Positions 5,102 through 5,406 of a stretch of DNA of 6,539 nucleotides are shown one piece after another. The notes under the pieces were generated by a model that had not been told where the DNA came from, did not search any database, and saw only the letters and a list, made by a program, of their open reading frames with translations. The translations under genes were made by a program, and so were the position numbers. The first letter of the stretch is position 1. The number at the start of each line of letters is the position of its first letter. Source of the stretch: Candidatus Heimdallarchaeota archaeon (GTDB lineage: Archaea; Asgardarchaeota; Heimdallarchaeia; Heimdallarchaeales; Heimdallarchaeaceae); assembly GCA_030668875.1 (NCBI GenBank), contig DAOVER010000094.1, positions 1 to 6,539 on the forward strand, given 5' to 3'.

Positions 5102-5406
5102 TGTCAATTGGTAATCTTGCTACTCTTGTTTAAAAGTATTATGCTTTCTTGTAAATCAATTATTACTGCTGTATTACTCCCCATTATGTCTAGAATAAAT
5201 TATCATCTTGTTGCTCCACGTCAATTGTTCGTTCATATGCTTCTAGTTACGATAAGATGGTGGTTTGAATACTTAGGCGTTTTTTATCCTCATTAAAGTC
5301 AAGGAATAGTTACAGGTAACGAGGATGGGTGAATCTCTATTTCTGCAAACAATTCTAATTATCCCCGTTTTTCAGGAAAAGAGAAATGATTTGAATATCC
5401 GTTCAT
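5102..5406 (-). pseudogene. Decayed pseudogene of an HgcA / HgcAB-like (CdhE/AcsC-family) corrinoid-binding protein, N-terminal domain only
   Basis: Manual minus-strand translation with two frame changes (T5 run at 5368-5372; near 5275) gives MNGYSNHFSFPEK/TGIIRIVCRNRDSPILVTCNYSLTLMRIKNA/KYSNHHLIVTRSI*TNN*RGATR**F. This is collinear with my recollection of the HgcAB-like consensus FPxKTGLxxIGNPxxxSPVLVTCNYxLTVxRVxxALxGxDxYLLVANSxGINVWCAATGGHF. Support is good for 5197-5406 and weak for 5102-5196 (VIIDLQESII, possible LP-QL remnant). Confidence 0.75.

What the first reader, a model, noticed from the sequence alone, without database searches (positions are those of the whole stretch)
5197..5406. 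Hidden fossil of an HgcA/HgcAB-like corrinoid methyl-carrier gene in the intergenic gap
Seen: on the minus strand, DSPILVTCNYSLT (5335-5297) is nearly intact and preceded by FPEK/TGIIRI. Further on, the codons AAC AAT TGA CGT GGA GCA ACA AGA TGA TAA TTT (5229-5197) are each at most one substitution from N-I-W-C-A-A-T-G-G-K-F (7 changes in 33 nt), at the expected spacing after LIVxxSx. Known: N(V/I)WCA(A/G)GK is the cobalamin-binding cap helix of the mercury methylase HgcA. Fused HgcAB-like paralogues with NVWCAAxGG occur in archaea, their function is unresolved, and tested examples were reported not to methylate Hg. Inference: this lineage once carried an HgcAB-like corrinoid protein and lost it. 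The ATGG-like motif points to the fused paralogue rather than a true methylase. ORF callers would miss it. The cap helix looks more eroded than the SPxLVTCN strand, which may be chance.
Basis: partly seen in the sequence, partly recalled or inferred. Interest (0 to 1): 0.72.

Follow-up and report, generated by a model that had tools for sequence, protein, structure and literature searches.

The report
Dead fragment of HgcAB-like gene
The gap between two genes of this Heimdall-type Asgard archaeon holds a decayed 64-codon piece of an HgcAB-like corrinoid protein gene, which is ordinary gene loss, and the genome has also cleanly deleted its main copy elsewhere.

Summary
On the minus strand, 5385-5197 is collinear, without gaps, with codons ~26-89 of the fused HgcAB-like proteins (NCBIfam NF043039) that 15 of 23 same-genus genomes carry intact.

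- **Support:** nhmmer gives 31.4 bits, E 2.6e-11 in the window and 1.3e-8 genome-wide. The best of 1000 dinucleotide shuffles is 0.4 bits. The X-masked peptide hits NF043039 at E 9.6e-11, against 18.5 bits for true HgcA.
- **Damage:** one net -1 frameshift, one net -2 frameshift and four in-frame stops. Three stops lie in the cap helix, which reads NN*RGATR**F against NVWCGATGGYF.
- **Extent:** only ~16% of the gene is left. The membrane domain and ferredoxin tail are gone.
- **Neighbour:** its 5' end abuts a second relic, the 3' part of an ARMT1-like gene on the plus strand (5393-5523).
- **Placement:** the fragment groups (UFBoot 94) with a rare second paralogue (G003 and a Heimdallarchaeota MAG), not with the genus's main copy.
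- **Main copy:** it lies in a cpaM-hgcAB operon, which this genome lost on contig C97 through a 1720-bp deletion at an 8-nt microhomology.
- **Assembly:** per-run contigs of four runs reproduce the relic exactly.

This is an ordinary pseudogene of a known family.

The parts
5197..5385 (-). Relic of an HgcAB-like fusion protein gene. It covers 64 codon positions, equal to codons ~26-89 of a ~390-aa protein, from the FPxPxKTG strand to the cap helix.
   Evidence: nhmmer 31.4 bits, E 2.6e-11. Genome-wide E 1.3e-8. Shuffle maximum 0.4 bits. NF043039 E 9.6e-11 on the X-masked peptide. Gap-free collinear alignment, 31/58 identical to L036 and 29/58 to G003.
5372..5373 (-). Frameshift 1: two bases (GA) remain of the Ala/His codon in FPxP-x-KTG, a net 1-nt deletion.
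   Evidence: nhmmer alignment; codon layout.
5275..5278 (-). Frameshift 2: a net 2-nt deletion inside the Ala-Leu codons (GCT CTT in G003 and L036, GC/CT here).
   Evidence: nhmmer alignment; codon layout.
5233..5235 (-). In-frame TGA at the Gly of the 'KG' before the cap helix (GGA in G003).
   Evidence: Codon alignment.
5197..5229 (-). Remains of the cap helix: N N * R G A T R * * F against N V W C G A T G G Y F. There is a TGA at the Trp (5221-5223), CGT at the cobalt-ligand Cys (5218-5220), a TGA at a Gly (5203-5205) and a TAA at the Tyr/His (5200-5202).
   Evidence: Codon alignment, 7 differences in 33 nt to G003. Motif in 19 homologues.
5386..5392 (.). Junction between the two head-to-head relics, both of which lack their 5' parts.
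   Evidence: The hgcAB alignment starts at 5385. The ARMT1 relic peptide EYPFMNE starts at 5393. No HgcAB homology was found 5' of 5385.
5393..5493 (+). Relic of an ARMT1-like (PF01937) gene, codons ~187-220, with one frameshift and in-frame stops.
   Evidence: blastn 74-75% identity to ARMT1-like genes of G002, G007 and G009, E 3e-14 to 2e-11, and 71% to the window's own intact copy. Translations.
5506..5523 (+). Last five codons (IIAYQ) plus the stop of the same ARMT1-like relic. About 57 codons between this piece and the previous one are deleted.
   Evidence: tblastn and blastn collinearity with G002. Direct repeat D9 with 2519-2533, the tail of the intact copy.
5524..5652 (+). Intergenic DNA upstream of the DUF2721 gene, conserved with G002.
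   Evidence: 79% identity over 196 nt in the local blastn and 85% over window 5505-6147, collinear with G002's ARMT1->DUF2721 spacer.
5080..5196 (-). Unassigned 117 nt between the relic and the start of the beta-helix gene. Presumably it is that gene's promoter or leader (inferred).
   Evidence: No HgcAB homology. No Rfam match.
2617..5079 (-). 820-aa NosD/beta-helix surface protein gene lying where the rest of the hgcAB-like gene would be. No orthologue was found in the genus.
   Evidence: Pfam PF13229, PF05048 and PF18884. Only partial repeat-domain matches in 23 genus genomes.
1689..2537 (+). Intact ARMT1-like gene (282 aa). Its 3' part is duplicated as the relic at 5393-5523.
   Evidence: Pfam PF01937, E 6e-50. 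75% identity to G002's TPR-ARMT1 region.

Best explanation
Window 5385-5197 (minus strand) is a non-functional, doubly truncated and decayed fragment of a gene for an HgcAB-like fusion protein. That family is a membrane-anchored corrinoid protein with its own 2x[4Fe-4S] ferredoxin tail (NCBIfam NF043039). The fragment does nothing now.

**Shown:**
- It keeps only the first third of the corrinoid-binding head, from the FPxPxKTG / SPxLVTxNYxLT strands up to the cap helix.
- It carries two frameshifts and four stops. The Trp of the cap helix is now a stop and the cobalt-ligand Cys is now Arg.
- No trace remains of the first ~25 codons, the rest of the head, the membrane helices or the ferredoxin tail.
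- It descends from a rare second paralogue type (G003 and Heimdallarchaeota 8H_bin2), not from the genus's main copy.
- The genome has no intact HgcAB-like or CpaM gene.
- The main cpaM-hgcAB operon was removed at its own locus (contig C97) by a 1720-bp deletion between two copies of TGGAAAAA. That deletion left a 22-codon cpaM stub that has lost its ATG and has a TGA.

**Inferred:**
- One deletion across a divergent promoter region beheaded both this gene and an ARMT1-like gene. That would explain why the two relics meet head to head within 7 nt.
- A further rearrangement replaced the gene's 3' two-thirds, and the lineage-specific beta-helix gene now sits there.
- The ancestral protein carried a methyl group on cob(III)alamin under the Cys-bearing cap helix, as HgcA does. 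Its substrate is unknown.
For: - **DNA-level homology:** E 2.6e-11 in the window and 1.3e-8 genome-wide. 0 of 1000 shuffles exceed 0.4 bits against 31.4.
- **Independent hits:** blastn to G003's intact gene, tblastn and the NF043039 scan of the genome (C35:5276-5407, model positions 5-48, one TGA).
- **Peptide level:** the X-masked peptide gives E 9.6e-11 on NF043039. It aligns without gaps over 64 positions, up to 53% identical.
- **Lesions:** mapped codon by codon.
- **Relaxed constraint:** first-position differences (24-26) are nearly as many as third-position ones (27-28). Intact pairs of similar overall divergence show 18-20 against 35-37.
- **Placement:** sister to G003 + L036, UFBoot 94, on a long branch.
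- **Extent:** no homology beyond either end.
- **Assembly:** contigs assembled separately from four marine-sediment runs reproduce 4800-5960 without a single difference at word depth 19-33.
- **Native-locus deletion:**
- **ARMT1 relic and G002 synteny:**
Against: - The case rests on closer models.
- With only 58 comparable residues, the placement with the G003 type is moderately supported, not certain.
- No sister genome shows an intact copy at this locus. G003 and L036 share no neighbouring genes with the window. The order of events is therefore conjecture, including whether the gene was ever whole here.
- The four runs may be the source samples of the assembly, so they exclude an assembler artefact but are not independent populations.
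- The genome is 92% complete, so an intact copy on unassembled DNA cannot be excluded.
Confidence: 0.9

Rival explanations
1. The fragment came in already broken, as a passenger on the roughly 3-kb variable segment (2534-5504) that also carries the lineage-specific beta-helix gene. On this reading the lineage never had a working copy of this paralogue at this place.
For: - Relative to G002, where ARMT1 is followed directly by DUF2721, the window has 2971 extra bases between two copies of the ARMT1 tail.
- The beta-helix gene has no orthologue in 23 genus genomes.
- The G003-type paralogue was seen in only 1 of 23 genus genomes and branches among mostly bacterial sequences.
- The neighbourhood varies among relatives. 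In G010 the TPR gene is followed by other genes.
Against: - It does not explain why the fragment meets a 5'-truncated ARMT1 relic head to head. A single local deletion explains that simply.
- The heavy decay (35% nucleotide divergence from the nearest intact genes) shows long neutral residence somewhere, but not where.
- No mobile-element hallmarks or terminal repeats other than the ARMT1 tail were found.
Confidence: 0.3
2. Chance resemblance of AT-rich intergenic DNA to short HgcA motifs.
For: Single codons are within one change of many residues. Pfam PF03599 finds nothing.
Against: 31.4 bits against a maximum of 0.4 in 1000 dinucleotide shuffles. Genome-wide E 1.3e-8. It is the only hit to the head part of the model in 3.2 Mb. 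The alignment is gap-free and collinear over 64 positions.
Confidence: 0.01
3. An intact gene spoiled by assembly or sequencing errors, or a chimeric join of two contigs.
For: The genome is a metagenome-assembled one. The same contig does have one assembly-level indel at 5966.
Against: - Per-run contigs of four runs agree with every base of 4800-5960 at word depth 19-33.
- Four stops, two frameshifts, many first- and second-position changes and two missing ends cannot be a few read errors.
- Both sides of the junction are themselves decayed.
Confidence: 0.02
4. A live gene read with recoding (TGA as an amino acid, programmed frameshifts), or a short functional peptide or regulatory RNA derived from the fragment.
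For: Three of the four stops are TGA. The fragment lies just upstream of the beta-helix gene and could be part of its leader.
Against: - The TGAs align with Gly, Trp and Gly, so no single meaning fits. There is also a TAA, and there are two frameshifts of different size.
- Neighbouring genes read normally under table 11.
- There is no Rfam match.
- The essential Cys is replaced and 84% of the protein is missing.
Confidence: 0.02

Closest known systems
HgcAB-like fusion protein (NCBIfam NF043039; e.g. Pyrococcus furiosus Q8U2U9, cited in PMC10087281)
   Same: It is the best-scoring family for the fragment (E 9.6e-11). Intact same-genus homologues pass its cut-off (416-425 bits against 285). The strand order and spacing FPxPxKTG ... 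SPxLVTxN(Y/F)xLT ... LLVANSKGINVWC(A/G)A(T/A)GG match. The fragment groups with two fused proteins. Fused HgcAB is already reported in Asgard archaea (bioRxiv 10.1101/2022.11.21.517362).
   Different: Only 64 of ~390 codons remain. There are two frameshifts and four stops, the Trp and Cys of the cap helix are destroyed, and there is no membrane domain and no ferredoxin tail. It is a pseudogene fragment, not a member that could function.
True mercury methylase corrinoid protein HgcA (NF040863; cap helix N[V/I]WC[A/S][A/G/S]GK, PMC10087281)
   Same: Homologous corrinoid-binding head and cap helix with the Cys ligand position.
   Different: The fragment scores 18.5 bits here against 41.9 for the fused family. 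Its intact relatives have ...GG, not ...GK, score ~171 bits against a cut-off of 275, and are fused to the ferredoxin. Tested fused forms did not methylate Hg (PMC4646819, PMC10087281).
CFeSP large subunit CdhE/AcsC (PF03599, NF003195)
   Same: Distant homology of the corrinoid-binding domain. The intact relatives match PF03599 positions 265-386.
   Different: PF03599 does not detect the fragment and NF003195 gives only 18.0 bits. PF03599 found nothing in this genome at E <= 10, so no Cdh-type corrinoid subunit was detected.
CpaM, corrinoid protein-associated methyltransferase (NF043040), the operon partner of the genus's main HgcAB-like copy
   Same: The partner gene was lost together with hgcAB at the native locus. 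A 22-codon stub remains at C97:1261-1332.
   Different: It is not present next to the relic in the window. The nearest intact relative of the relic (G003) has no cpaM neighbour.

Membership tests
HgcAB-like fusion protein (NF043039) | Significant match to the family model | tested here: met
   X-masked 64-residue peptide: E 9.6e-11, 41.9 bits, model positions 12-62. Genome scan: C35:5276-5407, E 4e-7.
HgcAB-like fusion protein (NF043039) | Whole-protein score over the curated cut-off (285 bits) and an open reading frame | tested here: not met
   41.9 bits. Two frameshifts and four stops. This fits a pseudogene fragment.
HgcAB-like fusion protein (NF043039) | Cap helix N(V/I)WC with the cobalt-ligand Cys | tested here: not met
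   The homologous codons are present but read N N stop R. Trp is TGA and Cys is CGT.
HgcAB-like fusion protein (NF043039) | Transmembrane domain after the corrinoid head | tested here: not met
   No homology 3' of 5197 at DNA or protein level.
HgcAB-like fusion protein (NF043039) | C-terminal HgcB-like 2x[4Fe-4S] ferredoxin tail fused in one frame | tested here: not met
   Absent from the window's relic. Present in the nearest intact relatives G003 and L036, so 'fused' is inferred from affiliation only.
HgcAB-like fusion protein (NF043039) | Phylogenetic placement inside the fused clade | tested here: met
   Sister to G003 + L036, UFBoot 94, on 58 informative residues.
True HgcA (NF040863) | Cap helix ending in GK, unfused, score over 275 bits | tested here: not met
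   Fragment 18.5 bits. Intact relatives ~171 bits with ...GG.
CdhE/AcsC-type CFeSP (PF03599 / NF003195) | Match to PF03599 over its gathering score | tested here: not met
   No hit for the genome or the peptide at E <= 10. NF003195 gives 18.0 bits.

The most novel reading that the evidence does not exclude
This Heimdall-type genus carried two deeply divergent HgcAB-like paralogues. One is the main copy, in an operon with the methyltransferase CpaM. The other is a rarer G003 / 8H_bin2-type copy without it. This genome lost both by independent events: a microhomology deletion at one locus, and truncation plus decay at the other. That makes it a natural double knock-out. Comparing its gene content with its close hgcAB-positive relatives (G016, G010) could show which pathway the still-uncharacterised CpaM/HgcAB-like system serves.
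Probability: 0.55. Interest if true: 0.35.

Novelty: new member of a known kind. Interest (0 to 1): 0.27.

Why it matters
It matters little beyond annotation. A 573-bp 'intergenic' gap turns out to be two abutting gene relics, which gene callers and Pfam miss.

It documents loss of the HgcAB-like/CpaM system in one Asgard lineage while most congeners keep it. It also shows the loss occurred at two separate loci.

The function of fused HgcAB-like proteins is unresolved and tested examples do not methylate mercury (PMC4646819, PMC10087281). Closely related genomes with and without the system are therefore useful material for comparative inference. The relic also warns against counting cap-helix-like fragments as hgcA in metagenome surveys.

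Tried and rejected
- **PF03599:** no match in the window's own genome at E <= 10 or on the X-masked peptide. The model is too distant for a 64-residue decayed piece.
- **Frameshift-aware protein-to-DNA alignment:** with strict penalties my own alignment stopped at 5276 and preferred an in-frame reading of 5413-5386. I dropped that extension because 5393-5413 matches the ARMT1-like relic on the other strand far better.
- **Rest of the gene:** profiles of the parts 5' and 3' of the relic found nothing in 5652-5370 or 5215-4700.
- **Rfam:** nothing in 4950-5750 at E <= 1.
- **Intact copy at this locus:** none found. The G002 syntenic locus has ARMT1 directly followed by DUF2721. G016, G010 and G003 gave no usable match for the flanks, apart from the TPR gene in G010, which other genes follow.
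- **Shared gene context with the nearest intact relatives (G003, L036):** none.
- **Orthologue of the beta-helix gene in the genus:** none, only repeat-domain matches.
- **Relics in five hgcAB-less genus genomes:** not found with the G016 head domain as query, and that call had no positive control.
- **RNA evidence:** no RNA holder listed.
- **Literature on CpaM:** the search returned only unrelated uses of the acronym.
- **Cap helix 'more eroded':** rejected as chance at nucleotide level, p 0.44.
- **Recoding of TGA:** rejected, because the stops align with Gly, Trp and Gly.

Full report
**Setting.** The window is a whole 6539-bp contig (C35) of a 3.2-Mb, ~30% G+C metagenome-assembled genome that is 92% complete. 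HgcAB-like genes of its genus match records titled Candidatus Heimdallarchaeota, and earlier notes on this genome also call it a Heimdall-type Asgard archaeon. The DNA is held by marine-sediment metagenome runs.

The genes are:
- TPR protein, 108-1529 (+)
- ARMT1-like phosphatase, 1689-2537 (+)
- 820-aa NosD/beta-helix surface protein, 2617-5079 (-)
- DUF2721, from 5653 (+)
- DUF1684, from 6228 (+)

The finding lies in the 573-bp gap 5080-5652.

**Observation.** The strings are DSPILVTCNYSLT at 5335-5297, FPEK and TGIIRI in two frames, and the 11 codons at 5229-5197.

**What it matches.** Pfam PF03599 finds nothing in this genome. It does find intact 380-405-aa ORFs in 15 of 23 same-genus genomes and in some of the same order.

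- These ORFs combine the C-terminal part of PF03599, a hydrophobic middle and a 2x[4Fe-4S] tail.
- They pass NCBIfam NF043039 'HgcAB-like fusion protein' at 416-425 bits (cut-off 285). They fail true HgcA at ~171 bits (cut-off 275).
- All 19 collected copies have GINVWC(A/G)(A/S)(T/A)G(G/D), never the ...GK of proven methylases (motif definition in PMC10087281).

**Statistics.**
- A DNA profile built from a codon alignment of the 19 genes hits the window at 5385-5209 (envelope 5405-5190). The score is 31.4 bits, with E 2.6e-11 for the window and 1.3e-8 for the whole genome.
- 1000 dinucleotide-preserving shuffles of the gap reach at most 0.4 bits.
- blastn independently aligns 5196-5386 to the intact gene of G003 at 67% identity.
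- tblastn and the NF043039 genome scan find this as the only place in 3.2 Mb that matches the head of the protein. All other hits are generic ferredoxin domains.
- With X at every break, the 64-residue reading hits NF043039 at E 9.6e-11 (41.9 bits). True HgcA gives 18.5 bits and CdhE/AcsC gives 18.0 bits.

**Anatomy.** Read on the minus strand:
- 5385-5374 gives F-S-F-P.
- Two bases are left of the next codon (5373-5372), a net -1 shift.
- 5371-5279 gives 31 codons, KTGIIRIVCRNRDSPILVTCNYSLTLMRIKN.
- There is a net 2-nt loss in the Ala-Leu codons (5278-5275).
- 5274-5197 gives 26 codons, KYSNHHLIVTRSI*TNN*RGATR**F.

The 64 positions align without a gap to FP(L/F)P.KTG...SPV.(L/V)T.N(Y/F).LT...LLVANSKGINVWC(G/A)ATGG(Y/H)F. 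Identity is 31/58 to L036 and 29/58 to G003.

The four stops sit at a Gly (5235-5233), the cap-helix Trp (5223-5221), a Gly (5205-5203) and a Tyr/His (5202-5200). The cobalt-ligand Cys codon is now CGT.

The 11 cap-helix codons differ from G003's at 7 of 33 bases.

Nucleotide identity is the same in the two halves (p 0.44). The many stops in the cap helix are therefore bad luck, not faster decay.

First-codon-position differences (24-26) nearly equal third-position ones (27-28). Intact pairs of similar divergence show 18-20 against 35-37, as expected under relaxed constraint.

**Extent.** Profiles of the protein parts before and after the fragment find nothing in 5652-5370 or 5215-4700. About 16% of the gene survives. 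The first ~25 codons, the rest of the head, the membrane domain and the ferredoxin tail are gone. The beta-helix gene starts 117 nt further on. 'Fused' therefore rests on affiliation only.

**Placement.** In a maximum-likelihood tree of 51 full-length proteins plus the fragment, the fragment is sister to G003 + L036 (a Heimdallarchaeota MAG) at UFBoot 94, on a long branch. It lies outside the clade that holds nearly all other copies of the genus.

**What lies beside it.**
- On the plus strand, 5393-5493 and 5506-5523 are a relic of an ARMT1-like gene. They cover codons ~187-220 and the last five codons plus the stop, with a frameshift, stops and a ~57-codon internal deletion.
- The relic is 74-75% identical to the ARMT1-like genes of G002, G007 and G009 and 71% to the window's own intact copy.
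- 5524-5652 is the conserved spacer before DUF2721.
- In G002 the ARMT1-like gene is followed directly by DUF2721. Relative to that, the window has 2971 extra bases (2534-5504) between two copies of the ARMT1 tail.
- The two relics meet head to head within 5386-5392, and each lacks its 5' part.

The simplest reading, which is inferred, is one deletion across a divergent promoter region that beheaded both genes. Whether the hgcAB-like gene was ever whole at this spot cannot be decided. The alternative is that it came in broken with the variable beta-helix segment. That gene has no orthologue in the genus, and the neighbourhood differs even in the close relative G010.

**The main copy was lost elsewhere.**
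- In G016, G010, G002, G001 and G005 the main-clade gene follows a 216-aa methyltransferase. That protein passes NF043040 'corrinoid protein-associated methyltransferase CpaM' at 264.7 bits (cut-off 180).
- The pair lies between a 489-aa gene and an S15 peptidase gene.
- On contig C97 of this genome the same two flanks abut. G016 positions 2606-4552 align to C97 3200-1260 (87%), and 6273-7538 align to C97 1266-1 (89%).
- So 1720 bp are missing, and the junction falls in a TGGAAAAA present at both ends in G016.
- The remaining cpaM stub (C97:1261-1332) has lost its ATG and has a TGA.
- No CpaM or HgcAB-like gene over cut-off exists in the genome.

**Assembly check.** Contigs assembled separately from four marine-sediment runs cover 4800-5960 with no difference, at word depth 19-33. 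These runs may be the source samples. They rule out an assembler artefact or a chimeric join, but they are not independent populations.

**Known context.**
- Fused HgcAB proteins were described in 2015, and P. furiosus carrying one made no methylmercury (PMC4646819).
- Tested isolates with fused forms do not methylate Hg (PMC10087281).
- Asgard archaea are already known to hold a clade of fused hgcAB (bioRxiv 10.1101/2022.11.21.517362).
- NCBI already curates both the fusion protein and its methyltransferase partner.

**Verdict.** This is ordinary gene decay in a known family. It is useful for annotation and as a natural loss case, but not mechanistically new.

Noticed in passing
window 5393-5523 (+): A second hidden relic: the 3' part of an ARMT1-like (PF01937) gene, with a frameshift, stops and a ~57-codon internal deletion. 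It is collinear with G002's ARMT1->DUF2721 arrangement. An intact ARMT1-like gene sits at 1689-2537.
   Followed up: yes
window 5966 (DUF2721 gene, 5653 to ~6123): The DUF2721 frame breaks near codon 105: residues 1-104 are in one frame and 106-156 in another. Per-run contigs of the four runs carry an extra A after 5966 (in X3 one of its two contigs there), which should put the two parts back in one frame. The break is therefore an assembly error or a minor variant, not a pseudogene. Several SNPs (5962, 5992, 6154, 6206, 6224) and contig breaks there point to strain heterogeneity.
   Followed up: partly
own genome, contig C97:1260-1332: Scar of a 1720-bp deletion that removed the cpaM-hgcAB-like operon between two copies of TGGAAAAA. 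A 22-codon cpaM stub is left without its ATG and with a TGA.
   Followed up: yes
L034:4486-6305, L035:5527-7340, L030:3496-5300, L031:8816-10614, L032:8676-10474, L033:8640-10426: In six genus genomes the main HgcAB-like gene follows a ~216-219-aa gene, overlapping it by 4 nt in five and separated from it in L034. The L034 copy was scanned and is a CpaM methyltransferase (NF043040). The G003-type paralogue instead lies next to a flavin reductase and a zinc-ribbon gene.
   Followed up: partly
window 2617-5079 (-): The 820-aa NosD/beta-helix/TSP3 surface protein has no orthologue in 23 genus genomes. Only its C-terminal repeat region (residues ~540-800) matches other surface proteins, including several in this genome (C48, C98, C8). 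G+C rises to 0.39-0.42 at 2700-3300 against ~0.30 elsewhere.
   Followed up: partly
L008 (G013:C63) and L025 (G013:C249): One genus genome (G013) holds two HgcAB-like copies. Some copies (G013a, G023, G017) end in a Cys-Cys-containing tail reminiscent of HgcB's C-terminus.
   Followed up: no
Related-loci result, L036-L115: More than 586 stretches in species-representative genomes of many bacterial and archaeal phyla encode HgcAB-like fusion relatives. The family is far from the 'rare' status given in 2015.
   Followed up: no
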